DNA of 63,931 nucleotides, filler included, from Hausera hauseri (Eukaryota): NCBI GenBank assembly GCA_046269625.1. It is 10 parts of 10 records of this genome, joined end to end, with 100 filler letters (N's around TTAATTAATTAA, not from the genome) between each part and the next. Parts side by side here need not be neighbours in the genome. Positions count along the whole stretch, not along the records: positions 21,445 to 29,028 come from JBJURY010005456.1; 9 more parts are not named here. One strand, given 5' to 3'. The position numbers and the translations under genes are program-made. The notes beneath the pieces were generated by a model. The model was not told where the DNA came from. It saw nothing but the letters and a program-made list of their open reading frames with translations, and did no database searches. Positions 2,021 through 33,316 of the stretch are shown here, one piece after another. Each line of letters starts with the position of its first letter. Position 1 is the stretch's first letter.

Positions 2021-2079
2021 AATAAATTACTTCACAGTACGACGAAGAAGACGAAGAAAAGGTGAGACACAGCGAATTT

Positions 2080-3322: not shown

Positions 3323-3329
3323 ATCAATC

Positions 3330-3680: not shown

Positions 3681-3689
3681 GTTCGTTTC

Positions 3690-4710: not shown

Positions 4711-4742
4711 TCGATGATGCTGGTGATGACTCAGTTTGTTTA

Positions 4743-8329: not shown

Positions 8330-10165
8330 GTCGCTCTTCCATATGTTTTCTTCGTAAGCTTTCAAAAATTTTCCGAAAGGTGTTATGATTGCGGTCAAAA
8401 TTTTACATGAAAATCCAGTTAAAGTAAATATTTCGTAGCTTTTTATAATAGACTAAATTATAGCCTTTATGAGTTGTACCAAAAAGTAAGTGGCTAAAAA
8501 TTCTGATATAGCTTGTCCGAAAATTAAAAATCTTCCCCAAATTTATGCAATATTTCTGTGGTGACTCTTTGATAATAATTGACGCCAAGTAAGGATTCCC
8601 ATTTTGCTTGGTAACGGGTGTTATCCATCACCGTTGACATGGCTCTATTTAGCTCATGTGTATGTTGTCGAGGGAAAGCCAAAAATTGTCTAAAAGCTTC
8701 GATCTCTTTTGGTCTGTAAATACCTTTACTTGCATTGTCAGCGAACTCATCGTCTGTTATACCTTTTAGTAAGTTTGTTCCGGTTAATTTGCCAGGCGTA
8801 GCTATTATTCCTCCATTTGGCAGACTTACCCAATTTGTCTCACTTCTCTTAAACATAGGCTCGCCTAAACCTGCTTTGCATTCTTTCAAGACACTTGGTT
8901 GTGTCGCGTTTTCTAGTAAAACTCTAGTGAGTGGCATATCCAATTGGGGTACGTTTTGATATATGTCCGGCAATTCTTTAATACAGCGTTTTTTTCCACG
9001 TTTAAAGATACGTCCCGTTTCTCACATTCGTAGATTAACAGAACTTCTCCCGTAACTCTTCCGAAAATGCCTTGTTTCATTGCAATTATTGGTGATGCTA
9101 GTTCTTGATTCGCATAGATTAAGGCTAGTTTGGTTCTCATGATTTCCATATCCAGTTTACAATCATTTGCAATCATTTTTTGATATAATTTTGCTAATCC
9201 GATTTGTTCTCTATAATAGAAGAAATCATCTCTATTTTTTAATTAATCTTCTATTCGTACGTCTTGTGTTTCCAATGTGAAGGTAGTCATTGCGGTTTCT
9301 TCCACGAAGAATGCTTCATTATTGGTAGCGTACATTACGTTGCATCGAGAGAGCATTTGTTTCTTAATAAATTTCAGTCCGTGATCCTCAGATATCAATA
9401 TCGTGGGTGTAGAGTGCTCAGCAACGTCCTTCCTTGGCCTGGCATTATTCTCGGTTGTCTACACCTACCTTTTTCCTGTGGTTTCGTTAAAATTTATCTC
9501 TTGTTTTAATAAAATTCCAATCATTCATAGGTGGTGGAGTCCAATTGACTATTGAGTTTTGAAAAGTACAGGCGCCATCTTGGATATGGCACTTCTGGTT
9601 TTCGGTATATGTTTTCGTAATACTATGGAACATCATCTTTTGATTCCTCATTTCTGTTTCGTAGAAATCGACTATTACTATTCCTGCTTCTCTTCCTTTT
9701 CTGGTATTGTGTTCATCTCCTTTACAGTATCCGGTGTGCATGTCCAGTTTTCCAATTGCTACTTTATACACTCGATTTATCTTTCCTGGTTGGACTTCTA
9801 GCTCTATTCCATCCCATCTCAGTCATCCGGTTTCGTTAGCCTGTTTACACTTGTCGATCTAAATCCATAGGAATTAGTGGAGTCGTCTGTTTTACTATCG
9901 ATGAATGTCCGTGCATGTTTCCGTAGTGGAAAATGCTTCACGGTCGTCGCAACATGCATTCTATTCCGTCTATTGCAATTAATTCGAGTTGCTGATACAG
10001 AAAATACTTTTTCTCAATGGTTACTAACTGGTGAGGTCGAGCATCTTCGCATAATTCCAAATCCATCAAGGAATATCTTTGTCCAACCTTAAACTTATCG
10101 CAGTCATATACGGTGACTGCACCGAGCTGTCTTATTAACATCATAAGTGTTATTAGTTTAATCAT
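8330..10165 (-). pseudogene. Chuvirus-like / herpesvirus gB-type (class III) envelope glycoprotein
   Basis: Signal-like MIKLITLMMLIRQLGA|VTVYDC; KCHIQDGAC; CKLDMEIMRTKLAL; GIFGRVTGEVLLIYEC; GIYRPKEIEAFRQFLAFP; C-terminal membrane region GRFLIFGQAISEFLATYFLVQLIKAII...TGFSCKILTAII. These are collinear with chuvirus G motifs. Confidence 0.82.
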
Positions 10166-12014
10166 CCAATTTGATTCACTGTCTCGCACTGAGTTAGTTG
10201 GCGTTAAATTTCTTACCACATCTTCAATCCTAGTGGTCAGCCTGTTTCCATCTTCGTCATCAAATAACTTGGACCAATTTATCTCTCTAGGTATCTTCCT
10301 AGCAGCTTTTCTGACTAACCCAATGGTCCTATTGAATTCATTTTATTTTAGAGGATTTGTTTTGATTGACAAGTACAATATTACTTTCCTAAATTCTTCC
10401 TTAGTATTCTCTACCATAATTTTCTCGATTAAAACTTCGTCAGATAAGTTGCTTTTATTCATTTTCAACCGAAATGTTCTCATAATCCTCGCAGCATCAT
10501 AATTGCTTTTTCTTTTTCGTCTAACATCTCGTCTCTCGGTTCAGAATAGTTTACTATTTTGATGATGTATCTAAGCAACCCGTTTAACTCTTCGCTCTCG
10601 GAGTTAATCGCGGGCATAGATAGTTGCCTTAGTTCTCGTATCAGGGCTGCACTTTGGTCAACATCATCTCTTATTTTTCTCGGCTTTCCAACTGGTCGTT
10701 TCTGTTTCGGCGCAGTTGGTATTGCTTCACTCATCGGTACTAGATTCTTGTCGTATTGTTCCTTATCTTCTTCATTCTGGAGGTAGTCAAAATACATGAC
10801 AGTGTCTATGACTCCCATAATGCGTCCTACAAAGTGTTTATCTCTTGCTTTTCTCGTAGCCTCTTCCTTTGTCTGTTCGTCGGTAATTATGGCCACTATA
10901 TGGTTTGTCTCTTCCGGAATAATTTCAACATCTATTAGCAGTTTGGGTTCGTATAGTATTCTACCTCTGACATATAATCGGTAATTTACTTCATCTTCTC
11001 CACCGTTTCGTACTATTCATTATTTTACTGCTCTAACCGATATCATCGTTTTACATTCAATTTCTTTTTCTTCCATCCATTCATCTGATACTTTTTACAT
11101 TAACCGTCATTTCGGGTTTAGTTTTTAAGAATTCAGCGTATTTCTTTATTAGTAATCCGGGTACTGATCTACAAACAGTATTTTCGGTTGATAATTTGGT
11201 CAATGTATGGATCAATTGTCTCAGTTTTCTCTCCATCATGTTGACGTTAATCTGCTCAATTAATTCTCTTTCGGCTAGTGCGGGATTTGATATCATTTCC
11301 ACATTAAATCGTCGATCGATTTGAAGAGTATCCATTGGTTGAAGTTGGATGGGCATTTTGGGGTTTTGGTTGTATAAATCTTCCAAATAAGTATCCCATC
11401 CTAAGTCATCTGTAACATGTGGAATTCCACAATCTAACAATGCCATAGGCGTGCTTTGTGCATTTTCACGGATTTCATTCAGTCTTGGCTGTATTTCCTT
11501 CATCAAGTTAGTGCGAAATTCTGCTCCATTTCCGCACGCAAGTTGTATAGTTTTTAGTGTCGGTCCTAATTCATCTGTAGGAAATAACCCTTTCCTTTCA
11601 TAATCCGTTTATTCGGTCGTCACATCCATTAACCATCTTTGTACGACTTCTCTTTTATTCGCTAACTCTAATTGCGTGACCTTATATTTATTCTTATAAG
11701 TCTCCTTACCTAATTAATCAAGTTTCGTAGCCCTTTGCTTTGTGCAAATCCGCAATTCTTCTAGCTCCTTGACTTGAGTTATCAATTGTCGTGTCTTATT
11801 GTCGTCTATTTCTGCCATTGTCGATAGTAGTGAAATTAATTCGCGCATTTCTTTTATATTTTTCGAACCTGGGTCTATTTCTTCAATCAGTCTCTTTACG
11901 AATTTAGCTTTATCTGGTGTGAGGCGATAATCTTTGTTTATTTCTATTAATTCAGCGTGACCATTCTGGTCGGTATCTGATGCCCACTTAAAAAGATGAT
12001 GTAGATAATTTAGT
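10166..12014 (-). pseudogene. Unknown charged/helical polyprotein region upstream of the glycoprotein
   Basis: ORFs 11081-11506 and 10480-10896 and their flanks join through isolated stops and frameshifts; the last segment runs in frame into the glycoprotein signal peptide. Confidence 0.55.
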
Positions 12015-12114: not shown

Positions 12115-12230
12115 GATGGACTCTACTACCTGACAACCCTAACATAGACGATGTCCTATATGGCAGCCCACAGCAGCTTATTAAAACTGCAAATTTATAG
12201 GAAAGTCTACCCAAACCTAAAGTATAACGA
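12115..12230 (+). mobile_element. Possible 3' end of a non-LTR retrotransposon ORF2
   Basis: LPDNPNIDDVLYGSPQQLIKTANL resembles the LYG..xL.xTA C-terminus of LINE ORF2 proteins. Confidence 0.35.
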
Positions 12231-13439
12231 AATTCTCGCATCTGAGCAGAGATCATCCGAATGGGAGGACAACGGATCACTTATAAACACAATTGTATGT
12301 TATAATGTTGATCTTTCGACTAAACTATGCTAAACAAATCCAGTGGATTCGATGCTCCCTGTTAGGAACAGATAGGGTTCTGTCGGCTTATCGTGTATCG
12401 GGTAGATGAAGGTGTCTGAACCCGATCCTTTCAGGTGATTATGGTCACAATCCTGTCAAATAACATGTTCAGATAGTTCAGAAAGGCTTGGATAGTCGAA
12501 GACAGATGCGCGGGGTTGCGACTTTTTTTCCGGCTTCGGCCCAATAAAACATTATGTAAACGTGAGACCAGTCTTTTCGCCGGACTATCTATGAACCAGC
12601 CTAACTCTTTGGTGTTACGGCTGCTGGTTAGTGACAGCCGCTCACAAAGTGGACAGAGATCCAAAACAGAAAGAAAATAAAAATGAATGGACGAAAATAG
12701 AATGCAGCAAGACATGAACAAATCAAACAATACGGCTGCTTGCACGACATGGCATGCACACACACGGAATCAAACAGCATGAACGGAGGGAAAATGTTGA
12801 TATTTGACAGCTGAAGGAAACAACAAACTGGTTAAAATGTTCACCGACAACAAATGGCGGTTAAAATAACTGAACACTTTCTCGTTTGTGTGTTTTTAAT
12901 TAACTCTCCTGTTCAAAGCTCGGAGAAAGTGACTTGTTTCACGAGTTTCTTTAAACAGCAATCAAGTTTACAGGGACCGTGAATGATGGGTGCGATCTTC
13001 AACAACGGCGAATCAGAAACACTGCATCCAATATTCAATGCATAGAACTATTCGCCAATTTGATTTGGCAAGACGGGGTCCATTTCCTCAATGTGTTGAA
13101 GTTTGATTTTCTCGATTCTTCAAGAAAGCAAAACAACAAAGGTCAAGGTAGCTTCAAAGGTCGTGTTAGAATCTTCCACGTTTAATTTCACCTGCAATTT
13201 AATTCACTGCCATTTCGAGAAGGAATCGTTCATGGGACTTTACTGCACTGAAAAAACAATGGAAATGTAGACATATTTTATTCATCTAACAAAAATCATA
13301 AAAAATAAAATAATAGGAATTATGACACCCATTCAAACATTTACTGAGATGTACAACAATCATAACAAGTACATCATGCTATGTGATAACATATCAACTA
13401 TTTAAGACTACAAAATTAGTCAACATGCACCAAATATTT

Positions 13440-14110
13440 TAAAAATCTATTTACCGCCGTATGAATCAAAAGCAATATCTCGCCGAATTATACCAGGAAC
13501 GTATTATTATATCATATGCATATTTCATTTCAATGTTTGATCGTTTAGGAGTCTGTCGAATAGGTTCATCTTTTCCTGGTGTAATCCATCAACCGATTTT
13601 ATTGCATCGAATAAGCTTATGCAAATAGAAAATCTTTTCATCAATTGTAACTATATTTCTGAGATATATTCTTTCATTCAACGATTGTAACAAATCTGTG
13701 CATCTCTTTGCAGGTTTAGCTTTATTTTCGACTGTCGATCTATGAGACACACATTTTGTGTCAACCCGTTTCCTTTCCAAGTCTTCTTCAATAATCCTTT
13801 GAGCTATAGTATGGAATATGTGAACTTCCTCAGCAATCGTTTTAACAGTGAGACTGTTGTCTTCTTTAATGAACCGTTTTACCAATTCAGTGTTTTCCCG
13901 TATTAAATCGCTTTATGGTCTACCACTACCTTCAAGTCTTTCAAGCGAATTTCTCTGATTTTCCTTGAACTCCTTACAAATTGCCTGTATGCGGCGTAAA
14001 CTTAAACAATCATCTGGCCACTCATCTTCCGTGATTTAATGTATTCTAGTAGCTTTATAATCACATCTGTGTAAAGTTTCAATCAGAAAAGTGTATGTGA
14101 TCCTTCGTGA
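13440..14110 (-). mobile_element. Mariner/Tc1 transposase relic
   Basis: SGRP...VKRFIKEDNSLTVKTIAEEV (HTH), KCVSHRST (WVPHEL-like) and IVTIDEKIFY (first catalytic D); stops present. Confidence 0.85.
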
Positions 14111-15141
14111 CTTCTACAAAAATAAAACAAAAATGTCAATCTAAAACAACGATACAACGCAATATAACGACAATCTAAAATTAGAGCTTTATTTGTCGGT
14201 TTAAATTAGATTTAATTTAAATTTCACACAATACAAAATAGTGAATTAAACTTAAAAACAATACAAAACAATAAACTGCACATACATTATAATAGTTACA
14301 TATCCATACAGCTCTCCTCTGATTGGGCTCTACCTATTACTAAAAACATTCGATCTTGGCACCTTATCTTTGGTTTATAATAAACTAACCCAAAACCAAT
14401 AACGTAAAATTATTAAAATAATATTACAAATATCACCGATATTATAGTCAATTTTCTGGATATGTTAACCTGGTCAATGGAAACATTGATCTTATTTTGA
14501 ATAAAACAACTAGTAATGTCAAGCTCAAGAGTTCCGCTTTTTACCTTCGCATTACGGGACTAACACGTAAACATGTAATTTATTTAATTTAATATATCTG
14601 TAGGTCATTTGTCTTATGTTTAACGCAAAGATTTGTCCTGCAATAATCATCTCTTTTCTACAGATAGATTCAGCTAACATCTTATTAACTGATCTTTAGC
14701 TCCTCTTTATTCTTTGGTATCTGTACTCTAAATGTACTTTCATAGTCAACATTCATAAGATACCAATCAATAGGACTGTGATTTTTCTTTTCGTGTATCG
14801 TTCTGTCAAACACATCATAAGATTTTGCTTTTCATTTCTGTTTCCCTTTCATTGTAGAATTTTTAACTGTATTTCCATTTTTCAGGTATTCAATGTCACT
14901 GAATATAAGTTTATAATTTTGTAAATCTACTATTCTATTGATTTTTCTGGTAAGATTTTTACTCCAACATGCAATTATTGCAAACATGATTTTTCCGTTG
15001 TTAACGTGCCTCCACCTGGTCCCAAATCCGGGGTGAGAAAAACGGAAGGACAACGGGACCTCTGAAGTTACTAATATTTTTTATTAAGATGACAATTATT
15101 TCTGAAGCCAATTATCGGTGTATTAAACTTAGTGCTTCCAA

Positions 15142-15907
15142 TATTAGGTTGTCAAAATAGTTTCCGGCCCTTGCGAACTGATGGATCTACATTTTTTATT
15201 TTCAAGCCGCTTTTTATGGTTTGGGCTTCATTTGAAAACCCGTTTTCTATTATTATTGATATTCAATATTATTCGTCTATAGTTGTTTAGAATGGAGTTG
15301 ACTCGCGAAAAAAACGCTTATTATTGTAGTTTCAATGGAAATTGGACATGAATGCATCTGAAAGCACAGAAAAGATCAATAAAGTCTATGAAAAGAGAAC
15401 GATTGGCCAATCTAGAGCTAAGGAATGGTTTGCCAAGTTCTGAAATGACGACGAGATATTGGAAGATCAGCCACACCGAGGTCGACCGACAAAATGTGAT
15501 GATGGAGAATTTTAAGCCGAATTGGACATTGAACCTTCGTTATTCACACGATTTGGCAGCAGAACGTAGCGTCTCAAACGTGGCAACCTGGAATAATTTG
15601 AAGTAAATTGATTTTGTATACAAAAGTCCCGACAAGATCCACACGAACGCACCAAAGCTCAAGCTGCCAAACGGTTTGAAATTTGACGTCAGTTGCTCAA
15701 CAATCCATTAAATGATCGGTTTTGGAAGCGGATTATGATTTCGGACTAGAAGCGTGTGTATTTGGTCAACCACAATCGAGACAAAAAATGGGTTTTGAAT
15801 AGCCAAGCAACGCCGTCAATTCCAAAGCAAGATTCATTTGGCAAGAAAGTCATGCTGTGCGTCTGGTGTAACTTTGAAGGTGATTTGCATTTTGAGTTGG
15901 TCGAACT
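15142..15907 (+). mobile_element. Mariner element, left part (TIR and transposase pseudogene), 3'-truncated
   Basis: TA followed by a TTAGGTTGTCAAAATAGTT mariner-type TIR; EWFAKF...LEDQPHRGRP, FWKRIMISD and KVMLCVWCNFEGDLHFEL, then an abrupt end. Confidence 0.9.
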
Positions 15908-18434
15908 TCATACTACACATAACAACTGTATGACTTCTGCACGAATGTCGGTTTTAGTAATGTGGAATCCATGCACACACATTTTGAAATAACCGTATAA
16001 TATATAGTACAATGACTGTTGATTGAACACAATTAAACGCATATTTTTCGATTCTTACTAATAATACACGCTGTTGAATCTATTTCAGGCTTTTTGTATG
16101 TTCTTTCTTCAGATGTATTGATATGTAACTTAATTACCATCTTTCTACAGCTTTGCAAGTGGCTTCTTTTGCTTTTGAATTTCTTCTACCATTGTATTTT
16201 TTGAAATGTTTATTATTGTCAACTGAAGTAATTTCATTAAAAAGAAAAAAGAAATAAAAAGATTGCTGAAGCACCGACGTCTGGAAAGATATTTATATTT
16301 GTTTGTATTGAGTAGTTTATATTCTTTAGATTTTGGAGATTAACATTTATCATATTTTGCATGTGCTGAGAATGCTTTTTAAAATTGTTCTAAGATATTC
16401 TTGGATGTTCATGTTTGCCGCAAAACAGATGTGAATGAGAATTAAATGCCGATATTGTACGATTTCTCGGATCGTGTCTGTTTTTGTATAGGAATTTTTG
16501 TTACATGCTAATACATTTTCGTCAGAATAAAATTCATTTCAGTTTCGATATCGTATTGTTTTTTTTTCATTTTTGATATTCCACAGTATTACATAGTAGA
16601 CAATAAACTTATTGCTCCATTATCATTAAACAACAATTAGGTATCAATTCTAATCTTTAGTTGAATATAGAACACACTGTTTTACAAATACATGTTTCAT
16701 CCGTATTTAACCGAAAATCGACAAACTTTCCGGAATTCGTCAATCTTATTGTTGTGCCCAACAAGCGCCGTTTATTGACTTCTAAATACACTGTTATTGT
16801 TTTCCTTATTTGCTGTTATCTTTTGTTATCTTTTTCTGCCGACGATTTGATGCACTTTTGCAGTTTTATATCACCGTGACAAAATACAGCAACGCTTAGC
16901 CGCAACCGTCAGATCTGAACCACAACAACTCAGATTTACAGCGATCAAGAATCAAGGAATCTCTAAGATGTTTCAGGAGGCTTTTTGTTTCAATCGTCAA
17001 AGAAGAATACACCCTGACGTTTATAACCAAAACGCACTGATTCAATTACCTAACGCAGGCTATCAGTTAAACGAAATATCAAATATCGATGACATTACAA
17101 AATTCATGCTTGATGGAACAAGTCGCATAATGCTTCTACTGGTTGTACAAGATGTTGCTGAAAGTAACATCTCTGTGATGAAAACCAAAAGCAAAAAGCT
17201 AAACCATTATCCTCTGACACATCTCGATCTTTTCGATCTGACTTAAACATTCCGGATAAACGATTAATTATTGAGGCATAAAATTTTAAGTCAGTGGTCA
17301 AATTTAATTAATAAAACAGCAGTTTCATTTAAACTGGCGTCGTTTTTTGTATAAGGGATAAATTGGATTTTTCTCTGCTTTACTTGGTCTAGAATATTGT
17401 GGAGTTTTAGTTTGCTTTTAATACATAGGTCAGATTCTATAATTTCCTATTGTTGGCCAAGAAAGAAACAACCGATATTGACTGTAGACAAAATTCAGTC
17501 TAGAAATATTAAAGATATTGTAAAATCGTTTGCGTTGACAAATTAGTTAAAAATGTATTGAATTTTGAAATTTAAACAAATAATAAATTAGCAATTGTTA
17601 TATTTGTTGCTTTTATGTGGTTCATAATGATGGGATTATTTAAAATCCCTGACTAAACACAGAAACTTCACTCATCAAGTAATCGTTCAATACGATGTAG
17701 CTCGTCGTTTATAGCCTACTCTAATTTACTGTCGATGTCGGATATCCTAAAGTCGTAGCGGTTATTCTGGTTCGAATTTCTTGTCGTGAAATTTATGTAA
17801 GAAAATTGTGAGTAATTCTTCGTGTCTAACGGTTCATATACAGTCGTAAAATAAGAATTTTGCAATTTCGAAAATTTAGACCAATAGAAATTCAAATATT
17901 GAAATTCGAAATTTGTCACAGTGACTATCCGAGTACGTTAATCACCATCTTGCGACTTCGTGCAATAAATTTTAGATGACTAATATGGGTCATCTTGGAA
18001 TATCCAAATTTTATTTTTAAAATTTCCAATGTACTAATTAATTAGAAAATAGAACTTTATGATAAAATAAAATATTTTAATATTGAATTAAATTAAATTT
18101 TGTTTTACTTTGAGTTAAATTTTATTTCATATTACTTTAAGTTTGACATTGAAATATTTAATAAAATGTTACCAATTATTTTTGGTCTTTTATGGAAATG
18201 TATCAATTTTATCCCAAATTCCATATGAAATATTGAAATACTTAATCTAAATTGTTGCAATTTATTTCTGCTCTTATATTGAAATATACCAGTTTTGTCC
18301 CAAATTCCATTTGAACTTTACCTTATTTGCTTCTTTACCCGGAATTGGGAAAAATGAAAAAAAATATTCATATATATTTTCAATTATACATTTGTCTTTT
18401 AGTTTACCCTTTATTTAATGTTAACTAGTTACTC

Positions 18435-18797
18435 AGTTACTTTGCCGTCATTGGCTAACACATTGTGTATATTATAAAGAAATACAGGAGATACCCATCA
18501 GGGGTTTAACACAAACAAACACAAAAAGACGTTTACATATATACAAGGGTTTATTATTTATACAGAATATTAACATCCTCATAGCCAAATTTGTTTGAGT
18601 TGCACAATTTTGAATTAAAATATTATTGCCAATACTTTGTTAATTTTGAATCACATATGCTTTTATTTCGGTTCATATTTGTGGATTCGGAGTAGATTCG
18701 GATTACATTGAAATTTCGCGCTCCGCTTTGGGTTCGAATACATTGTGTCTGAAATTTTGATTTTTGTGTTTAGGCGGAGTTAATTAAGGAATCCTAA
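18435..18797. repeat. Diverged block shared with 22291-22635 (contig 4)
   Basis: Collinear TTACT..GCCG..TTGG.TAA, GATACCCATCA, TTTAACACA, TTTATTATTTATAC and ATTAAGGAA motifs with similar spacing. Confidence 0.75.
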
Positions 18798-19551
18798 CAC
18801 TTCTAAATCGTAAAATGTTTCGAAATTCGTTCAAATATCATAATTTATAGCAGTCATTAACTTCACATTGCTCACCAGTGTATCTACATGCATTTCTCAA
18901 CTAATAAATCCCGAGAGTTATTTCCTCAATGACACTCAGCGAAAGTTTGCGGAAGTGAGAAATTTTTTCAGCTATTACAGACGCATATTCTTTCAAGGAA
19001 TTCTTTTCTTAAAGCTGAAGTGTCTGCAATTTTTGCGGAATGACGTTGTCTTTTTGTGCCAATTTGACAATTCTTTATATTTGTTCATCACTTACGTCGC
19101 CGCTTTTAACTAATGAAGAGCCAAACGCATTTTCGAAAGTAATCTGATACTGACTGTGTTTCGAAACATTTTGTACTTTCATTTGAAGTGTCCATGTTTG
19201 TTTCAACTGCCCAATGAAACATAATCATCAATCGTGATTTATTAGCTTGCTTCGTATTATACTGGCAACCTTTCTTTGCAAAATGCCATATAAAATTTTT
19301 CATAGCTTGTTTTAAAGCTTTGCTTTACAAACAAAACCAATTTAATTTTAATTTAATAACACAATTTAATTTTAAATAACTCAATTTTAAATGACTTAAC
19401 TTAAAATTCAATTTAATAATTACGGATTAGCATAACATAAATTACAAATAAAAATTAATAACAAAAAACATAATTTAGTTTCTAAATACAAAATCAATCA
19501 CAAATATAACATCTTTTTCCGAACAAACAAACAAACCAATTTCAGAATCTT

Positions 19552-19809
19552 TCAAAACAAATTCGCACTTTCAAAGATCATGTTCAGCACGATATGCCTG
19601 GCAAAGAAGCCAAGAACGCAAGTGAAACTCAAACCAACAATTAATACAGGTTGTGAGAAATCCATACCAAAACAACAAACCGCGAAAAGAACGAAAGCGA
19701 CTGCGAGGCCCAATGAGCCGATCACTATGAAGAAACGATGGCAAATCCCGAAATACTTCAAAAAGAAATGTGATATATCCACGCGTATGTACCACATGAT
19801 GTCTATCAT
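19552..19809 (-). CDS. Putative small orphan protein with two hydrophobic segments
   Basis: 85-aa ATG ORF with FFIVIGSLGLAVAFVLFAVCCF and PVLIVGLSFTCVLGFF; GC content is higher than the flanks. Confidence 0.35.
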   Translation of the reverse strand: MIDIMWYIRVDISHFFLKYFGICHRFFIVIGSLGLAVAFVLFAVCCFGMDFSQPVLIVGLSFTCVLGFFARHIVLNMIFESANLF

Positions 19810-19982
19810 ACCTCCTACAGCCTTTTATGCTGTGTCGAGATCAAGTCCACCAACGCGAGCCACGACGACAAGATCGCCTCCATCGAAATGCGTTTTAAAA
19901 TGTGTCTTTGAACAATAAACCTTCTAACCAGAAAATTTTGTTCTCTATTACGTTTTCACCACTCATTTTATTCGACTGTCGT

Positions 19983-20760
19983 TTAATACTTATACTGTGG
20001 AGCCTGTATAAAGCTTTCGCACAAAAGAAAATAACCAAACTTTTTCGGATAAAGACAATAATTCATCTCGAAATCCATGTCCACTAAAATTGCATCGCCA
20101 GCTTGGAAAATATGAAATATTCGAATTCGTTTCTGTATCATTGTCTTGACTATCGATGCATCGTTATTTATCCCAACGTAAGGACCCCATGCATTTACAA
20201 TATAACCATCAAGCAACACTATTATCATTGGTTTAATAAGTGGTCTTGGCTTCTGAACACTATATAGTCGCTATTGTATTGTATATTTGCTGGATTTTTC
20301 GGTGTACAAGTACGTTCCATCAAATATAACAAATCAGGCTTTCATCGCTAACACCAAACAATTGCTGACATTGCTTTGATACATGCTGTAATAGCCTATT
20401 ACGATTAATTCCAAGATATTATAGTAGGAAGTTGTCTAGAATGTACTGTCTTGTTAAGCTGAGACATCTTGACACTACAATTCTATTTTCATATACAAAT
20501 GCTGCTGTGATGTAATTGTTATATAATCCTTATCTCATTTTGAATAAAGCATTCCAAGTTTCGTCCTTTTACTGTAGTCAAATCTGTTTCTGCTGCCAAC
20601 ACGAAAAACAAGTGTTGAGAAGAACGAAATTAAACTGCACCACATTTAAACCGGTCGGAAACGTCTTAAGCTGCTTCTCATCTCAGTGTAATAAAAAGTT
20701 ACAAGGATCTTTGGAATTTGCTTTGATAAGGAATTCTTTATGGCCTCATATTTAAACATT
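19983..20760 (-). mobile_element. PIF/Harbinger-ISL2EU-type DDE transposase relic
   Basis: LYSVQKPRPLIKPMIIVLLDGYIVNAWGPY...NNDASI...GDAILVDMDF (DDE_Tnp_4-like); decayed upstream. Confidence 0.75.
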
Positions 20761-21444
20761 TTTTTGCTTTAACCAACATTCGAGCTCTTAATGCTTATAT
20801 TTCACAAGAATATGCCCACCGTAATTTTTATGCCTTTTTTGAATCAATATGTGGAATCAATAGTGTGGGTGCATAACTCCCATAGGCTTATTATTACATG
20901 GTGGCGTTTAAATGCTTTGTTGGTAATATTGAACGACGTTTGAACAAAATCCGAAAGACGTATTCAATTATTTTAAAGCTGATGTTATTAATTCAAACAA
21001 TTTTCAATCAGTGACAGAGAAGGTATGGAACCACGTCCTTTCATTTTAATTTTTACTTCAATTGACATTATTTCACTTCTACACCCAGACTTTGATGCAA
21101 TTCTGTATAATCAAATACTTTTGTACGCTAATTAGAAATGTGCAAATTATTTTCCTTATTATGTGGAAATTTCTGAGTTCTGAATAATAAATTTTTATTA
21201 TCGTTACTACTGGTATACGTTATTACCCTATGTGAAATCAAAATATTTACAAAATTACATTGCTTCATTTAATAGACTAATGAGCATACGACGGTCAGAT
21301 ATTACACACAATTTTACACAAACCATTTTATATTTGGAAAGGATNNNNNNNNNNNNNNNNNNNNNNNNNNNNNNNNNNNNNNNNNNNNTTAATTAATTAA
21401 NNNNNNNNNNNNNNNNNNNNNNNNNNNNNNNNNNNNNNNNNNNN

Positions 21445-21521
21445 GATTCAATTATTATTTTCCTTTCGTCTCTCCCTTAATTTGGATAGGCAGCCTTTTC
21501 TGAGTGTAAATTCAGCGTGTC
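21445..21521 (+). repeat. 77-bp exact terminal direct repeat, left copy
   Basis: GATTCAATTATTATTTTCC...AATTCAGCGTGTC is identical to 28952-29028. Confidence 0.97.
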
Positions 21522-22290
21522 AGTTCAATTCTCCACATACACGAATATTTTCACAAAAACCCATTGTGGTAATTCTGTCTGGACTATTTAATACGCAGCT
21601 GATTGTTTTATAATTATGTATTTGTGTGCAGTGTATAACGATATGTATATATGCACATTTGTGCACGTGTATGTAAATATATTTGTATGTAAATCTGTGG
21701 TGGTAAGGCAAAGCAAATTACCTGCACCCTAGATCAAAATTAAAAATGACACAGTCTTTCATATGAAATTATTTCGATTCAATCATAAGAATTCATCTTT
21801 ACTACTAATAAGAAATACGCATGGATAATGACACGAAATCATTGCAATGTTGCATAATAATAGAATTCTATCGTAAACGTTTATTTATTCGATCATTTGT
21901 ATAAAGGCAATATTATCAAAATACTAAATGATTGTACAAATCGTTCGGAATCTTGTCAAAATAATAAGTGGCGACATAACTGATGTACACTCTACTTATT
22001 AATTAAGGAATTTGAAGGTGAAGAGTTTATAAAGTTTTGCATTTTATACATATTTATTACATTTTAATAAATCCTTCTCATATGCTAATTATGTCGTCGG
22101 AACCTTACTTCTGCTAATTTTATTGTAAGATGGAATCTGAGGAATGAAGAAACAGTACCTGGCACTTGCTCATTATACCACATATTGGTAATTGTACATC
22201 GTGCGGTACATAACGCTCGTTATCGCCATGTGTTTGTCATGTACTGCAATATTAACACTTGTGTATTTTGTATTTACTTAATTATTTAAT

Positions 22291-22635
22291 CATTACTCTA
22301 GCCGCCTTGGTTAATAATGTTTGTATAAAATGCAGCAGTGGTGGTGATACCCATCAATGGATTTAACACACATCAAAACTAGAAGGCATTCAATTATATA
22401 AACATCGATTTATTATTTATACACAGATATTCACATAGTCAGTGTTACTTGTTAGAACTGTAAAGATTTCGAATCATAAAATTATAGTTAATGATGTAAC
22501 TGTTTTTTGGATAACACAAGTAAATGTTATCGTATATTCTTCTTCATCCTGAATTGGTTTTGGTGTTTCGGGATCAAATCGAGTTATGGGTTTTTGGAAT
22601 TCGTATTTAGAGTGATTTTCATTAAGGAAATTTAA
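22291..22635. repeat. Diverged block shared with 18435-18797 (contig 3)
   Basis: GATACCCATCA at 22346, TTTATTATTTATAC at 22409 and ATTAAGGAA at 22621; overlaps the small minus-strand ORF 22474-22659. Confidence 0.75.
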
Positions 22636-23792
22636 CAAAATATAGGCTTTGGGATGCATTAATTAAATTGCAACTTTTTAAACCATCAATATTACAAATA
22701 GCATAATTCTGAAATTATTTCGGCAGATTTAAAACTTTGTTTCGAAAGTACTAAAACTTATATTCATTACCAAATACTTTAATCGAAATGCCCGATATCA
22801 ACAACAATGAAGGTACTGCAATAAGTGGAAAAGATATTGGAAATAACTAATTGGAGTTATTCACAATATTTGTCAATTCTAAAGACTGTTTTGTTAAATG
22901 AATGAAAGATTTTGCAATTTTTATTTCACTTTTATCTTATAACATTCAAAAAAATTGTTTGATAATAAGATTTTATGGTAAATACTAACATAAATTGAAG
23001 ATGTTTCATGATTTACTAACACTTTCATATTGCCATAGAATAGAAAATAAGTTTTATCGATAAGTTCAACATAACAATTAAATTTTTTGAAATTTTAATT
23101 GGATAAATTAAATTTTTACTTTAACAGTATATAAATAAATAATTGTTTGTGTAAATAATAATTTGAATTAAAAATTTATAGTGATTTATTGAGTATTTCC
23201 GTAATAGAATATTGATAAGTGAATGAAATGTAATAAATAAAGTAATTCGAACTTTATTATTTTTTAATGTTTCAATTTAACAACTTCATATATAAGAAGT
23301 TAAAATGGCATTTTTGCCATTTTTATTTATAATATCTATTTAACAAATCCGTGATAGTTCACGGAAGAAAGTTTACAAAGTAAAAATGTGTAAGGAAGTT
23401 CTTAAAGAATTAAACTTTCAGAATGGAAGATTATTCAAAGTATAATTGTTATTGCATGGAATAATTAATACTTGTTCTAATGAAAACATTTTACTGCTAA
23501 AGTATTGATAAAGATATTTCAAAAGATTCTGAACTTTAAAGATTGATTTGATTAAGGTTTAGCAGGTGAATATCAATTGATAAATTAATAGAAATTAAAT
23601 AATGATTGTAAAATTGTTAATTTTGGCTTTATTGCGCACTGTGAGATAAACTATAATTAATCTTTATTGAAAACATTTAAAATCTATCCTCATCTTTCAC
23701 AAGAATGAATATTATTCGTTCAATACAAAACTATAATAAAAGTAACAAATAGAAAGATACAAAAGTTTTTTATTGAACATAGAAATAAACTT

Positions 23793-25922
23793 TTATGGTA
23801 ATACTTTATTTACAATTTTTTCACCAAGTCTGTTTGAAGCTATCAATCTAATATGTTCAACACATTTTTGTAAACCTTCTAAATCCGAAACGGTCTCAAA
23901 ACTCTTTCTGAAAAATGAGGAACACTCTTCACTTACAAATCGTTCAAGAAATTCTGCCAAAAATTCCCAAAACTTTGGCACATCCTCAATTATATCATCC
24001 GCATTGTTTATTAATTTCTGGATACTATAAACTATATCTTCTACTTTTAAAATGTTTAACTGTTCCGCTCTGAAAATATAGTCTCCCAAATTTCTTCTGC
24101 AGCTTGCATTTTTTTCCAACATATCGTCAATCCATTTTGTCAGAAGCTGTTTTGGATTTTTGATAAACTTTAATGACTCAATCATTGCATTTCCCAATGA
24201 TATTTCATAAAATAATTCATTTTCAGAAATGTTTTTGATATTTTCGCTTTCTCTATTCGGCTCTTCATTGACTACATATGGTTTATTTTCCTTATTTGAC
24301 TTCATTGTGTTACAATCGGAATTTTTACTGTTATAATAACGTCTTGATGAAATCTTCAAATTTCTAACTTCACCTTTTTGATAGCACTCTGTTTTTGATT
24401 CATTATTCCAAGCATTTCTATGATTGTTAGAAAATGTTGCTGTTCTGTTTGCTTTTGGAAACTGGATTTCATTATCGTTTTGTAACTCTTTTAAGGTTTT
24501 CGGATCAACACTTTTCTGAGCTGTTCTTTCGGTCCATTTTCGCTTGCGCATGTCCAAAACATCTTTTACTTTAAATCTGTATCTTGTTTCTAACGTGTTC
24601 ATTCTACTTAATTGTTCTACGTCTACCATTAATTCATCAAATCTTTTAGCAAAATTATTTTCAAGTATTTTTCCACACCTTTCTAAGATAATACAAATTG
24701 AATTTATATTATCAAGATTAGTCACGTTTTTCAACAGTGATTCTAAACATCTGATGATAACGTTTCCGTTTAAACAGTTTTGAATAAACAATTCAGAAAT
24801 AAATCTCATATTACCGAAGTAATTATCTTTTACTTGACATATCTTTTCTTCAACACTCTCTTGATAAAGTATTTTCATTCTTTCATCTTTTTCCTCGTCA
24901 ATACGTTTTCTCCAGTTTTCTCTTTCAATTTCCATTAATTCAGTTAAATTTGATTCAAATAAGGTTTTGCACTTCTTCAAAATCAGCGCTTTAAAAGACA
25001 ATGTATCGCATTTCAAATCAAATATTCGGCAACAAAACCGAGAATATACTTTTGCATATCCACGCTCCTTTATTGCTTTACAAAATATTTCGTGGCTCAA
25101 AAGTTCAAGACTACTTTCATCAAAATATCTACATGTTTTCAATTCATTCAAACATGATTCGAAATTCTCTGGTGCAAGCATGTTGAGTATTTTAAGAAAT
25201 CTTCTTTTAGTATTTTCACTTTCATTCTCATTTTGAGTTCTTTTATGTGGAACTTTATAACTATTTTCATATTGCGTTTGTTTCTTAAGTTTTGTAGTTC
25301 GCCACTCACCCGCAGGTTCTACGCATTGATGATTCAGAAATAATAATTTTACTGGTTTCAAAGATAAAATTGACCTAAGATTTTCATTGCTAAATGACAA
25401 ATGTTTAGGCCTTTCTCTACAGAAACTTAATTTTTGAAGTTCTTCTACCGTGTACGTCTTTATCTTTTGTTTTTTACTTTCCACCATTCTATTGGATTCT
25501 GAATATATACTTTCTGTTTTACTCATGTCATTTGCAGTATCTTCACACAAAGTTGTATTTAAATCACGTATTTTTTCAATGTTGCAATTTGACTTTCTAT
25601 TAAAGTCTATTGCAATTTTTGTTACCGGATCTAAAACAACTAACGGTTTTAATTCTCTTTTGCATGACTTAATTGTCGTCACCGGATCCAGAACAACCGA
25701 TTCTCGTTTTGCCGGATTAAGTGTTATTATTGGATCCAAAATTGTTAGAGGTTTGAATTCTCTTTTACTGACATTACTTTGATTATGCTGAATTTGATTT
25801 TTATAAACGACATCAGAACCATTGTTAAAATGCAATATTGATTTTGTTTTCGGATCAACAATTGTTAGTGGCTTGAACACTCTCTGGCTCAATGTTTTTT
25901 CATTCATTTGATTCATATTCAT
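23793..25922 (-). CDS. eIF4G: Divergent intronless eIF4G-like translation initiation factor (PABP-binding-like repeats, 4E-binding-like motif, MIF4G, partial MA3)
   Basis: 709-aa intact ORF. MIF4G: ILNMLAPENF...IFCKAIKERGYAKVYSRFC...FKALILKKC...GNMRFISELF...RYRFKVKDVLDMRKRKW. MA3-like: LEKNASCRRNLG...ADDIIEDVPKFWEFLAEFL. YTVEELQKL motif. AATAAA follows the stop. Confidence 0.9.
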   Translation of the reverse strand: MNMNQMNEKTLSQRVFKPLTIVDPKTKSILHFNNGSDVVYKNQIQHNQSNVSKREFKPLTILDPIITLNPAKRESVVLDPVTTIKSCKRELKPLVVLDPVTKIAIDFNRKSNCNIEKIRDLNTTLCEDTANDMSKTESIYSESNRMVESKKQKIKTYTVEELQKLSFCRERPKHLSFSNENLRSILSLKPVKLLFLNHQCVEPAGEWRTTKLKKQTQYENSYKVPHKRTQNENESENTKRRFLKILNMLAPENFESCLNELKTCRYFDESSLELLSHEIFCKAIKERGYAKVYSRFCCRIFDLKCDTLSFKALILKKCKTLFESNLTELMEIERENWRKRIDEEKDERMKILYQESVEEKICQVKDNYFGNMRFISELFIQNCLNGNVIIRCLESLLKNVTNLDNINSICIILERCGKILENNFAKRFDELMVDVEQLSRMNTLETRYRFKVKDVLDMRKRKWTERTAQKSVDPKTLKELQNDNEIQFPKANRTATFSNNHRNAWNNESKTECYQKGEVRNLKISSRRYYNSKNSDCNTMKSNKENKPYVVNEEPNRESENIKNISENELFYEISLGNAMIESLKFIKNPKQLLTKWIDDMLEKNASCRRNLGDYIFRAEQLNILKVEDIVYSIQKLINNADDIIEDVPKFWEFLAEFLERFVSEECSSFFRKSFETVSDLEGLQKCVEHIRLIASNRLGEKIVNKVLP

Positions 25923-26620
25923 AACACAAAGATAGTTTATTATACTAATCTTTCACAAATGGCTTCGAAATTTTCATTTAAATTAATTCTTTATAATAAT
26001 ATTGGATAAATGTGAATCCCATTACAGGTTCTAATGTATAAGTTAAAATTTACAAATTTAACATTCATATGTTAAAGAATGGTAATTTTGTGTTTGAAGA
26101 ATTTAATGAGATAAAGTTAATTTAAAAAGGTCAAATTAACTTTGTTGAAATATACACCTAATTTTAATTTTCAATATAAACTTTTGGTGGAAAGGGTTTT
26201 AAGTAATTTATAATTTTGAAATAAAATTGAAATATCATGGAATAATAATAGCAAATTACAATATTACATAATATAAACGAAGATGTGTATTAACACTAAA
26301 AATATAAGATATCTCTTTAAATATATAGTTTGTTTGTATACTAATATTATTGCGGTTTAATTATTTTAATATAATAAATTAATTATTTTAAAATTATTAT
26401 GATTTTGAAAATTTTATTATAAACCGTAACATGGTAATACTATTTGATTTAATACGTTACAATATTTGACCAATCGTTGTACATTGACGTTGGTAAGAGC
26501 CACTTTATTAACAAATAATAAAACTATTTCAATTTATTTAATTATACAATAATCTCTTACTTTATATTCTGATGAAAGTTAAATAACCTAAGATAGATTT
26601 TATGTCTAACCAATGATATG

Positions 26621-27713
26621 TAGGGGAGACCGGGGCAGGTTGTAACAGTTACTAAAACAAGCCAAACATTTATTGTAATTTAGTTATTTATCTATTAGCA
26701 CATCCGTTTGGCACCAGCTGATAATGCAAAACTAGAGACAAGCGTATAGTTTTCGATTACTATACAGTATTGCAGGTTTGTTAAATTTTACTTTACAAAG
26801 TATTATTTAGTAGTTTTGATTATTTCTTTCTCTAATTTAAACCTGTTTGTCGATTTTGGTATCTATATAGTCAAACATGTGCAAATATATAGTGACTGCA
26901 CTGCCTTAATTACGAGATGGTAGTATTTTCAGTTTCGTTGCTGTAGACTGCTGAAGTTATGCCTCAAGGCTGGGGCAGATTGTAACATTGTAGTGCAATG
27001 TAGGTTGCAATGCGTTACAACCTAGCCCGATGTATTTTGCAGCAAAGTTCACTATAATCGTACGCATTGCTGCTACGGTATATAAGCCTAGTGTATGAAC
27101 TCCGTATAAACATGTACCGTATAGAGATATAACCATTTGATTTGCATCAATATTATGTAAATATATATTTTTTAGAATGAAAACTATAAAAGAAAGACAA
27201 TTAGAGGAAACGCGTCGAATGACGAAATTGAGGCTGCCGTAAACAGAGTGATTGAAAATAAAGAATCAATTCGAAAGGTAGCCAGGGAGTTTGGCATTGT
27301 ACAAGTCACTTTCTTTCGATAAATAAAGAAGGTTCAGGCGAGAATAACAAATAAAATGCCTGCCAAACTGGATCAAGTTGGCTATATCCCAAATCGTCAA
27401 TTTTTCACACCGGCTCAATTAGCTGAACTTGATAACGTATATAACTGCTTCACGCAGTGAAATTAATATTGTTACAACCTTCTTCGGGAAGTGTTGCAAC
27501 TTGCCCCATATCTAAGGTTGCTTGTAACACAAGTGAAGACCTTACGAAAGCTTATATCTTCTGAACATTAACGTCTAGCCGACCGTATTATTCACTATAC
27601 GTAGACCGATATTGGTTGATTAATAAGCGCTGATATCTATTTTAGAATATATCACTACAGTCCGCTAAGAAGGATAAAGCAAAAATTGTTACAAGTTGCT
27701 CCAGTTTCCCCTA
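26621..27713 (+). mobile_element. Pogo/Tigger-like non-autonomous deletion derivative
   Basis: TA-flanked imperfect TIRs (TAGGGGAGACCGGGGCAGGTTGTAACA / TGTTACAAGTTGCTCCAGTTTCCCCTA), subterminal GTTACAAC repeats, and an HTH-psq remnant EIEAAVNRVIENKESIRKVAREFGI near 27180-27440; no DDE domain. Confidence 0.85.
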
Positions 27714-28951
27714 TAACATATTATATATTTAGATGGCTTCATGAATTTTGTAACTAATTCTGCAAATAGAAAATTTGAAGGAAAATTAAATTAAAGTCAA
27801 ACTTAAAATTTGAAGATGATGAACATTAAAGTTTCATAATTATTAATCGTCATTTTAAATTTTTTGTCACTAAATAATTGTAAATTGATTTATTTAAAAA
27901 TTATTACTGTCCATAAAGAAATGAACTAGTTATATGTTGGTTCATTTTATCATTGAAAACAAATATACAAAATTAATTAAAGAATTCAGTTAGAATCTCT
28001 TGTACTATTTGGATATTGAAATTACAGAATATCAATTTCCCAAATTAAATAAAGACATTTATAACTGTTTATTGTGCGTTCCAATTTGGTACAATTTTGG
28101 AAAATTTTTGACAAAATTTCTTTGAAGATGAAATATATTTGTAACAACTTAAGAAATTTCAAAGTTTTTTCCAGAAAAAGCTATTTAATATAGAAGTAAT
28201 CGATTAGTGGTCAACGGACTTTTATAAAACCTGGAAGTAACATAGTATTCATCATGTTGATTATTCAACATAAATGAAAAATGGCTACAGATAAAAATGG
28301 CTTCCATGCTGAAGTTGCAAATTTGTAACGGATTCTATCCTAGTCAATCATACACATTAAATATTTTTACTAATATAAGTTGAATATAGATTTTATTATA
28401 TATGAATAAAGACGGATTTGCTCGGCAAAATCCGCGGATCAAAATCCGGAGTATCACTTGGCTTATTATCGCACATTTTAACTCAAACTGAATTCGAATT
28501 ACTTTTAAATTATATTTATTTTAATCCTAATTTTGAAACAAATTATAAATACATAATAATATTACTTATTATTTATTTTTTCTGAGCCATTAATATCCAT
28601 TCTCCTTTATGATACTTGTTCACTCTAAAATTAAACATTTTTATTTACATAAGTTGCATATAGATTTTATTATATATATGTACACAGTTTTTCAACTAAT
28701 AGAAATTTTCATTTCGAAAAACACAATTCGAAATATGGACTACTCCAAATTCATACACTGTTGTTCACGTTGGAGAAGTCTAGTTTGGTAGTAACGATTC
28801 CTCTTTCCCATATATGAATTTTTATATCCATAAAATAAATATACGGTGATAATAAAATAGCCAAACCAAGACCTTAAATTTTGGAAAGTCTGCATAAAAA
28901 TTGAATGTGGGTGTTCGAAAAAGGCTTTTCATATAGTACTTGAAAAACATT

Positions 28952-29028
28952 GATTCAATTATTATTTTCCTTTCGTCTCTCCCTTAATTTGGATAGGCAG
29001 CCTTTTCTGAGTGTAAATTCAGCGTGTC
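28952..29028 (+). repeat. 77-bp exact terminal direct repeat, right copy
   Basis: Identical to 21445-21521. Confidence 0.97.
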
Positions 29029-32528: not shown

Positions 32529-32987
32529 TTATTGCCGGATAATCCATCCTAACACAGCAATGATAACAATAATTAGTAACACAAGCGAAGGCTTAAGTTC
32601 GAGTTTCTTTAAATATATACTGGTGGGATACTTGAGTACGATAAATCGTTCAATTGCTAGAATAGCCAGAATCCAAAAGGAAGTATCCGTAAAAACGTAA
32701 GAGGCATAATGATGTAACTTACAAACGATATTACTGATCGTTCGAATGTCAAACCCGAACATGTAAATAATGAATAGTCGTAATCCCATTATGAGTACTG
32801 CTAATTCATCGGATACTGATTCGCTAATAAGAAACACGCGAGTAAATGTTTTTACTTTTGTTTGGGCTTTAAACACAATTATGCAAAATATGTTTCCGAA
32901 AAGACCAATTATAACAGTAATCGTTATGATCCATTTGTAAATATTAAAAGCTGTTGAATCGGAAGGATTTACGCGTGATAGGTTCAT
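32529..32987 (-). pseudogene. Class A (rhodopsin-like, peptide-receptor-like) GPCR, truncated after TM4
   Basis: TM1 IIGLFGNIFCIIVF, TM2 FLISESVSD, ECL1/TM3 CKLHHY...WILAILAIERFIVLKYP; the ORF stops just after the fourth hydrophobic segment. Confidence 0.85.
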
Positions 32988-33316
32988 AAATTATCTGACT
33001 AATTTTTCTATGCATACATCTGATAATTTATAGGGGATTGTTAGTTCCAATAGGAGTTGTCAGATAACTTAAATCCAAACAATCCAATTCGACAGAGAGA
33101 AATAATGAGATAATTATTAAAGTATACATGAGACTTTAATACTAAAACTGAGAAAAAGAAAAACTTTGAAAATAGTTTATTTGCCACGAAACATTATAAA
33201 AACTTTCACAAACACCGGATTTAATGAACCTTTGAGGCGTAAATAATGTTTGCTGTCAGATTTATTCAACATATAGATATGTTGATGAAATTTAATTTTT
33301 TGAATAATAAAGATTA

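What the first reader, a model, noticed from the sequence alone, without database searches (positions are those of the whole stretch)
21445..29028. 7.5-kb circular (or tandem-unit) AT-rich molecule whose only intact large gene is a captured eIF4G
Seen: the contig ends are identical for exactly 77 bp, giving a 7,507-bp unit. It has one intact intronless 709-aa eIF4G-like gene and no recognisable polymerase, Rep, integrase or capsid. Known: an exact terminal overlap equal to a common assembler k-mer (77) marks a cycle in the assembly graph, meaning a circular molecule or a collapsed head-to-tail array. Inference: this is a non-autonomous gene-carrying circle (polydnavirus-segment-like or eccDNA/plasmid-like) or a tandemly amplified retrogene delivering a translation-control factor.
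Basis: partly seen in the sequence, partly recalled or inferred. Interest (0 to 1): 0.82.

Follow-up and report, generated by a model that had tools for sequence, protein, structure and literature searches.

The report
Amplified planarian embryo eIF4G repeat unit
A 7.5-kb DNA unit that joins end to start in two sequencing runs carries an intron-free flatworm eIF4G gene whose relative in a laboratory planarian is expressed almost only in early embryos; it is likely a chromosomal tandem array that would raise embryonic protein synthesis, not a virus-like circle.

Summary
The contig has an exact 77-bp end overlap (unit 7,507 bp) and one long ORF, a 709-aa eIF4G (MIF4G, weak MA3, no W2). Independent contigs in runs X1 and X2 cross the end-to-start junction well beyond the overlap. 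The gene is not captured cargo. It sits in a flatworm clade beside Macrostomum and fluke eIF4G, and clade member P0006 matches the Schmidtea mediterranea early-embryo transcript SMED30027996 at 31 of 32 residues (read by eye). The only other clade locus I could fetch (L001) is also a repeated unit of 2,990 bp, pairing the eIF4G with a short Dcp2, another early-embryo gene type. In X1 the unit is about 8-10 times deeper than diverged copies of the transposons inside it. Best reading (0.6): a head-to-tail chromosomal array of a triclad early-embryo eIF4G paralog with 3-4 PABP-binding-like motifs. Free circles are not excluded (about 0.17); a polydnavirus-like segment is very unlikely. Expression of this copy and circle versus array were not measured. 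Ten literature searches found no report of such arrays.

The parts
21445..28951 (.). 7,507-bp repeat unit (head-to-tail array unit or circle)
   Evidence: end overlap; junction 28951->21445 bridged by one contig each in X1 and X2
21445..21521 (+). 77-bp terminal overlap, left copy (assembler k-mer overlap, inferred; no special sequence feature seen)
28952..29028 (+). 77-bp terminal overlap, right copy
23793..25922 (-). single-ORF eIF4G paralog, 709 aa (P0001), triclad early-embryo-type clade
   Evidence: frame unbroken in the X2 contigs that cover 23970-25693 and 25715-25922
25599..25892 (-). three clear and one degenerate PAM1-like (PABP-binding-like) motifs, [KR]..[KR]PL.[IV].DP, aa 14-99
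   Evidence: pattern in 20 of 151 proteins (1.3 expected from shuffles); more than one copy only in P0001; binding not tested
25434..25454 (-). variant eIF4E-binding motif, Y157-x4-L-Q (last position not hydrophobic)
   Evidence: canonical YxxxxL-phi per PMC12709193
24537..25202 (-). MIF4G (HEAT-1) domain, aa 241-462, predicted eIF4A-binding
   Evidence: Pfam E 1e-13; model pLDDT about 90; best fold match 8huj_B eIF4G-HEAT1, E 1.7e-9
23922..24173 (-). MA3 (HEAT-2) domain core, aa 584-667; the protein ends after it, no W2
   Evidence: Pfam E 1.3e-4, under cut-off; helical in the model; clade relatives P0003-P0005 pass the MA3 cut-off
26621..27713 (.). non-autonomous pogo/Tigger-type DNA transposon remnant: terminal inverted repeats (24 of 30 match) beginning and ending in TA, broken HTH_psq at 27176-27319 (+)
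   Evidence: (HTH_psq E 1.1e-4, above cut-off); diverged copies in X1
22278..22436 (+). dispersed host repeat, 71% identical to window 18421-18576 on another contig
   Evidence: E 7e-11; raised depth at 22204-22456 in X1 and X2
28265..28816 (.). high-copy dispersed repeat zone of unknown family, with a 48-bp direct repeat (28356/28630)
   Evidence: summed depth 2,100-2,400 in X1 bins against 42-54 for unique parts; limits approximate

Best explanation
The contig is one 7,507-bp unit, joined end to start and carrying an intron-free eIF4G of a flatworm paralog family, and it is likely a head-to-tail tandem array of roughly ten or more copies on a planarian (triclad) chromosome that would supply extra eIF4G for early-embryo translation. 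Shown: the junction, the ORF and its domains, the flatworm placement, and the match of clade member P0006 to an S. mediterranea early-embryo transcript. Inferred mechanism: the paralog arose by duplication, probably retroposition, and was amplified by unequal crossing-over, carrying along transposons that had inserted in its spacer; an assembler then collapsed the near-identical copies into a cycle. The protein would act as the scaffold of an embryo-type eIF4F: MIF4G and MA3 binding an eIF4A, the variant Y-x4-L motif binding a divergent eIF4E, and 3-4 PAM1-like motifs binding several PABP molecules on poly(A) tails, so favouring polyadenylated mRNAs in blastomeres. The array would provide dosage for a short burst of expression, as histone and rDNA arrays do.
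For: (1) Junction bridged by one contig in each of X1 and X2, at depth close to the gene body (46.4 vs 42-54; 6.0 vs 5.9-8.4); X2 differs at a few fixed sites, so it is not the window's own assembly. (2) Copy number: 16 listed X1 contigs from diverged repeat copies have median depth 5.2, and unique unit contigs are 8.2-10.4 times that; 12 variant rows average 5.9-18 per contig. A single-copy gene should sit at the depth of those copies. (3) Flatworm placement: 14 clade rows group 93/97, with P0023 99/94, next to Macrostomum and Clonorchis/Schistosoma eIF4G. (4) The Nanostring target of SMED30027996 read by eye matches P0006 at 31 of 32 residues; P0006 is 32% identical to P0001 over 528 columns. 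That transcript has RPKM 400/203/80/5.7 at S2/S3/S4/S5 and 0.05-0.07 in adults. The same early-embryo cluster holds an eIF4E-like, eIF4A-like and short Dcp2-like transcript. (5) The 1 clade locus that the JGI scan returned is a doubled 2,990-bp unit (2,959 of 3,007 positions match) with the eIF4G next to a short Dcp2. (6) Host transposons sit inside the unit, one shared with another contig of the window.
Against: No read shows an array flank or more than one junction in a row; contigs cannot tell array from circle. The depth ratio uses only listed rows (152 variant rows and 1,366 pieces not shown), the tool warns that depth is not copy number, and the diverged copies could come from a rarer second species. 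In X2 the ratio cannot be read: other contigs lie at 2.3-12, overlapping the unit. P0001 is unresolved inside the clade, has its longest branch (1.05) and does not group with P0006; only 1 eIF4G row appeared in the early-embryo lists searched, while four UniParc-only clade proteins exist, so P0001 may belong to a differently expressed subfamily. The eIF4E motif ends in Q, and the PAM1-like stretch gave no PDB sequence match. Retroposition was not tested.
Confidence: 0.6

Rival explanations
1. The unit exists largely as extrachromosomal circles (host-derived eccDNA or developmentally amplified circles, as for oocyte rDNA), made from a planarian early-embryo gene locus.
For: A closed cycle with a real junction at about 1:1 depth with the gene in two runs; the second clade locus is also cyclic; the ratio of unit depth to the 28276-28528 repeat bin differs widely between runs (about 0.025 in X1, 0.3 in X2, above 1 in X3).
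Against: No Rep, origin-like hairpin or motif shared between the two units (blastn gives only the coding match and AT-rich noise); same junction and nearly identical sequence in two samples suits an inherited locus; the changing ratio is also expected when low coverage drops diverged repeat copies from contigs; host transposons inside.
Confidence: 0.17
2. One or two chromosomal copies flanked by identical copies of a dispersed repeat, closed into a false cycle through that repeat.
For: In X1 the k=31 contigs break at three repeat zones (22204-22239, 26650-27607, 28265-28816), so the cycle passes through repeats where an entry and exit could lie.
Against: The reported junction itself lies in unbranched sequence; unit depth is about 8-10 times that of diverged repeat copies in X1; a second clade member shows the same architecture.
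Confidence: 0.11
3. A chromosomal tandem array, but of a germline (testis or ovary) or otherwise non-embryonic eIF4G paralog, or an array drifting towards loss of function.
For: P0001 does not group with P0006 and shares PABP-type motifs with P0003 instead; S. mediterranea has a germline eIF4E paralog (PMC5544531); long branch; the Dcp2 in L001 is frameshifted.
Against: The only clade member with expression data is embryo-restricted and near zero in sexual adults; the ORF is intact over 709 aa and in the covered parts of X2.
Confidence: 0.1
4. A polydnavirus-like segment or other virus- or plasmid-borne circle with a captured eIF4G used to control host translation.
For: Small AT-rich cyclic unit without replication genes; one Atlas neighbour cluster is half viral, MIF4G on 48% of members; a mimivirus vIF4G appears at rank 50 of the fold search.
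Against: Gene nests among flatworm eIF4G, not insect or viral ones; a clade member is a host transcript; no relative in viral contigs or phages; polydnaviruses are known from parasitoid wasps only (PMC5012692 abstract start).
Confidence: 0.02

Closest known systems
Schmidtea mediterranea early-embryo-enriched eIF4G-like transcript SMED30027996 (Davies et al. 2017, PMC5293490, cluster 6)
   Same: Same divergent flatworm eIF4G clade (P0006; 32% identity over 528 columns); MIF4G plus MA3, no W2
   Different: P0001 has 3-4 PAM1-like motifs that P0006 lacks; orthology unresolved; the passages read say nothing on its genomic arrangement
Canonical metazoan eIF4G1/3 and flatworm eIF4G (Macrostomum, Clonorchis, Schistosoma)
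   Same: Order PAM1 - 4E motif - MIF4G - MA3; flatworm form of the PABP motif and of the MIF4G helical insert
   Different: 709 aa instead of 1,000-1,700; no W2; multiplied PAM1-like motif; variant 4E motif; one ORF on a repeated unit
Tandem arrays of high-demand or embryo genes (histone, rDNA, DUX4/D4Z4-type macrosatellites; recalled, no call)
   Same: Kilobase head-to-tail units with an intronless ORF that collapse to a cycle in short-read assemblies
   Different: Here the cargo is a core translation factor, and in a relative it is paired with a decapping enzyme
Polydnavirus segments and the planarian element PEVE (PEVE recalled, not read)
   Same: Small gene-bearing DNA unit; PEVE is planarian and extrachromosomal
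   Different: No wasp link; no Rep or helicase as recalled for PEVE; the gene is a resident host paralog

Membership tests
eIF4G family | MIF4G (HEAT-1) domain | tested here: met
   Pfam E 1e-13; PDB sequence and fold matches to eIF4G1
eIF4G family | MA3 (HEAT-2) domain | tested here: inconclusive
   E 1.3e-4, 22.3 bits against a cut-off of 23.2; aligns with relatives that pass
eIF4G family | W2 (HEAT-3) domain of metazoan eIF4G1/3 | tested here: not met
   no W2 hit; protein ends at 709 after the MA3 helices
eIF4G family | canonical YxxxxL-phi eIF4E-binding motif | tested here: inconclusive
   Y157-x4-L-Q at the aligned place; last residue not hydrophobic
eIF4G family | PAM1 PABP-binding motif | tested here: inconclusive
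   three pattern matches, as in 19 other eIF4G of 151 including a sturgeon eIF4G3; no PDB match; binding untested
Triclad divergent eIF4G clade containing SMED30027996 | groups with P0006 and relatives apart from other eIF4G | tested here: met
   93/97 in IQ-TREE on 27 rows, one side of a branch in 94% of bootstrap trees, just under the star threshold; 99 in FastTree on 151 rows
Planarian early-embryo-enriched genes | expression at S2-S4, off in adults | not testable with these tools
   known only for P0006 = SMED30027996; no RNA run for this unit
Chromosomal tandem array | head-to-tail junction at unit depth | tested here: met
   X1 and X2
Chromosomal tandem array | several copies per genome | tested here: inconclusive
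   about 8-10 times diverged repeat copies in X1; not readable in X2
Chromosomal tandem array | continuity with chromosomal flanks | not testable with these tools
   contigs only, no long reads; no genome held
Extrachromosomal circular DNA | covalently closed, exonuclease-resistant molecule | not testable with these tools
   needs bench work or long reads
Polydnavirus segment | parasitoid-wasp origin of the gene and carrier | tested here: not met
   flatworm placement
Polydnavirus segment | segment excision motif (direct repeat junction) | not tested
   no motif search run
Rep-encoding circular element (CRESS, plasmid, PEVE-like) | Rep, helicase or polymerase ORF | tested here: not met
   no other frame over 122 aa in the contig, none over 65 aa across the junction
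Retrogene | intronless copy of an intron-bearing parent, poly(A) remnant, target duplication | tested here: inconclusive
   uninterrupted ORF shown; parent's introns and poly(A) remnant not tested

The most novel reading that the evidence does not exclude
Triclad flatworms keep an embryo-only cap-handling toolkit (eIF4G, Dcp2, perhaps eIF4E and eIF4A) on small amplified units that exist at least partly as free DNA circles, a gene-amplification system for protein-coding translation factors comparable to oocyte rDNA circles.
Probability: 0.15. Interest if true: 0.85.

Novelty: new variant of a known kind. Interest (0 to 1): 0.5.

Why it matters
Planarian early embryos express a separate set of translation factors whose role and genomic basis are unstudied in the papers found. 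Two of two genomic contexts seen here are repeated units, which suggests that this set is dosage-amplified and may be collapsed or miscounted in planarian assemblies. It gives direct tests: copy number and arrangement of SMED30027996 and SMED30007542 in existing long-read genomes, and whether an embryo-type eIF4F selects polyadenylated mRNAs in blastomeres. It also explains why such genes turn up as small 'circular' contigs in environmental data, where they can be mistaken for viral or plasmid cargo.

Tried and rejected
No genome held for the window. No RNA holder listed: no evidence either way on expression. X3 (share 0.08) has four short identical pieces at depth 2.5-3.7 and no junction; not used as support. 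Word-index protein searches found only 1 and 4 proteins and missed clade members that full HMMER found. No relatives in viral contigs, phages or GTDB genomes. Rfam: one chance hit, mir-297 E 0.94. Tandem Repeats Finder: one 17-bp doublet. No Dcp2 remnant in the window unit (tblastn best E 0.24) and no non-coding motif shared with L001. PAM1-like region against PDB sequences: 0 hits. First tree did not finish; redone with FastTree on 151 rows and IQ-TREE on 27 chosen rows. Earlier-findings look-ups returned nothing. No complex prediction was run: no planarian eIF4E, eIF4A or PABP sequence was in hand. The probe-to-protein match was read by eye, not computed. AATAAA sites 19, 125 and 160 nt after the stop are uninformative in 72% AT DNA.
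Full report
Observation. The window is 10 contig pieces joined by spacers. Contig 21445-29028 is 7,584 bp at 28% GC, and its ends are identical for exactly 77 bp, giving a 7,507-bp unit. No other N-free segment has such an overlap. One long ORF, 25922 to 23793 on the minus strand, encodes 709 aa with MIF4G (E 1e-13) and a weak MA3 (E 1.3e-4, under cut-off) and no W2. Its best solved relative is human eIF4G1, and a model built on 13 aligned sequences folds the MIF4G region at pLDDT about 90 and matches eIF4G-HEAT1 first. All other frames are 122 aa or shorter, and none across the junction exceeds 65 aa.

Is the cycle real? Three public runs hold the stretch (shares 0.97, 0.85, 0.08; three studies). 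X1 may be the source sample. In X1 and X2 one contig each runs from 28951 back to 21445, with 136 and 180 bases on the short side, beyond the 77-bp overlap; X3 shows no junction. Junction depth is close to the gene body in both (46.4 against 42-54; 6.0 against 5.9-8.4). X2 differs at a few fixed sites (23529, 24725, a 2-bp gap at 26321), so it is independent of the window's assembly. End-to-start joins therefore exist in DNA. Contigs cannot say whether they lie in a circle or an array.

Copy number. The unit contains host repeats: a pogo-type remnant at 26621-27713 with terminal inverted repeats and a broken HTH_psq, a repeat at 22278-22436 that is 71% identical to 18421-18576 on another contig, and a high-copy zone near 28265-28816. 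Diverged copies of these give an internal yardstick. The 16 such X1 contigs whose depth is listed have a median of 5.2, and the unique unit contigs are 8.2-10.4 times deeper; 12 variant rows average 5.9-18 per contig. This is a rough estimate: only the best-supported rows are shown, the tool warns that depth is not copy number, the copies could come from a second species, and in X2 the ratio cannot be read.

Whose gene? Full HMMER gave 150 listed hits. Thirteen of them, plus P0152, P0168 and P0170 from other calls, form a divergent clade with P0001 (15 rows with P0001 in FastTree, support 99; 14 chosen rows in IQ-TREE, 93/97). Its neighbours are P0023 (99/94) and named eIF4G of Macrostomum, Clonorchis, Opisthorchis and Schistosoma. 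Clade members carry no species names, except one filed under a bacterial MAG. The link to planarians comes from Davies et al. 2017 (PMC5293490; I saw search passages, section 9, and rows of supplementary files 2, 3, 10 and 11; file 12 had no hit for the two ids; file 13 was not searched). The Nanostring target of transcript SMED30027996, read by eye, matches P0006 at 31 of 32 residues. That transcript has RPKM 400, 203, 80 and 5.7 at stages 2-5 and 0.05-0.07 in adults. P0006 is 32% identical to P0001 over 528 columns. The same cluster holds eIF4E-like SMED30018175, eIF4A-like SMED30011137 and an 817-nt Dcp2-like SMED30007542. Against over-reading: P0001 is unresolved within the clade, has its longest branch, and does not group with P0006, and only one eIF4G row appeared in those lists. 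That the other UniParc-only proteins are also S. mediterranea is my inference.

A second cyclic unit. The JGI scan confirmed 2 of 224 pattern hits, both in one contig, L001. It is a doubled 2,990-bp unit (2,959 of 3,007 positions match) with an uninterrupted clade eIF4G and a frameshifted short Dcp2 (Box A E 8.5e-8, Nudix E 1.4e-5). Seven intact relatives of 231-247 aa exist in environmental collections, and their Nudix box agrees by eye with the SMED30007542 probe. So both genes of L001 correspond to early-embryo gene types, and 2 of 2 genomic contexts seen are repeated units. The two units share no non-coding motif. Other clade proteins lie on contigs of 0.9-4.6 kb from several sources; I could not fetch these, and their recovery from environmental data only hints at high copy number.

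How it likely works. The motif order is that of eIF4G: PAM1 for PABP, then the eIF4E motif, then MIF4G and MA3 (PMC12709193, passages). P0001 has three clear and one degenerate PAM1-like motifs; the pattern occurs in 20 of 151 proteins (1.3 expected) and more than once only in P0001. The eIF4E motif is a variant, Y-x4-L-Q. I infer a compact scaffold for an embryo-type eIF4F with multivalent poly(A)/PABP grip, expressed in a short burst in blastomeres, with dosage raised by a tandem array. None of the binding or expression steps was tested for this copy. A germline role is a live alternative, since S. mediterranea also has a germline eIF4E paralog (PMC5544531, passages).

Rivals. Free circles (0.17) fit the junction and depth equally well but lack any replication gene or shared motif, and the conserved junk-bearing unit in two samples suits an inherited locus. 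A low-copy gene closed through flanking repeats (0.11) is possible because the cycle passes through three repeat zones, but the depth argues against it. A non-embryonic or decaying array gets 0.10. A polydnavirus-like or viral circle (0.02) fails on phylogeny and on blank searches of viral contigs and phages.

Novelty. The gene type is known as a row in an expression table; tandem gene arrays are a known kind. Ten searches found no paper on tandem or circular arrangement of planarian early-embryo translation genes. PMC7308552 (passages) mentions a Dugesia eIF4G only as a regeneration-induced transcript; all other papers were seen as listings only. Subscription journals and bioRxiv supplements were not searchable and may bear on this claim. 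Verdict: observation confirmed, interpretation partly supported, new variant of a known kind, interest 0.5.

Noticed in passing
L001 1-5997: Doubled 2,990-bp unit with clade eIF4G (195-1439) and a frameshifted short Dcp2 (2170-2872), separated by two families of short tandem repeats (one with a palindromic core, three copies at about 1800-2090) and AT microsatellites.
   Followed up: partly
proteins P0180-P0186: An unnamed family of 231-247 aa Dcp2-like proteins (Box A plus Nudix, no C-terminal tail) on short environmental contigs; P0180 and eIF4G P0015 both come from JGI, Logan and ENA with longest contigs of 4.5-4.6 kb and may share a unit (not shown).
   Followed up: partly
protein P0003: Clade eIF4G with two to three PAM2-like motifs (Pfam E 0.0017, under cut-off) followed by one PAM1-like motif: a second way of multiplying PABP contacts in the clade.
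   Followed up: partly
protein P0012: A flatworm-clade eIF4G fragment is filed in NCBI under an Aeromonas hydrophila MAG, probably bin contamination.
   Followed up: no
window 2032-5525 (-): Stop-broken frames that resemble Polinton/adintovirus capsid and neighbouring genes (resemblance recalled; no Pfam hit).
   Followed up: no
window 7564-11608 (-): Broken element with an aspartic-protease-like motif (recalled) and a Monjiviricetes fusion glycoprotein piece at 8527-9021 (Pfam E 8.5e-5); probably an LTR element carrying an RNA-virus-type envelope gene.
   Followed up: no
window 12115-21344: AT-rich contig sharing a dispersed repeat (18421-18576) with the unit, and holding a degenerate mariner-like stretch near 15300-15900 (by eye, recalled); probably the same host.
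   Followed up: partly
window 32529-32990 (-): Rhodopsin-family GPCR fragment (7tm_1 E 1.8e-11).
   Followed up: no
window 34890-41478: CT-rich microsatellite contig with extreme strand skew and many N runs; its long frames are artefacts.
   Followed up: no
window 41860-55144 and 60993-63527: Several LINE-type elements: PHD/FP ORF1 plus endonuclease-RT (41860-45833), RT frames (47397-49901), DUF4780 plus endonuclease-RT (50479-55144), RT plus RNase H (60993-63527). The window is rich in multi-copy elements, as in a low-coverage animal assembly.
   Followed up: no
window 56357-59403 (+): Four frames of 145-275 aa on an A-rich strand with no Pfam match; unexplained.
   Followed up: no
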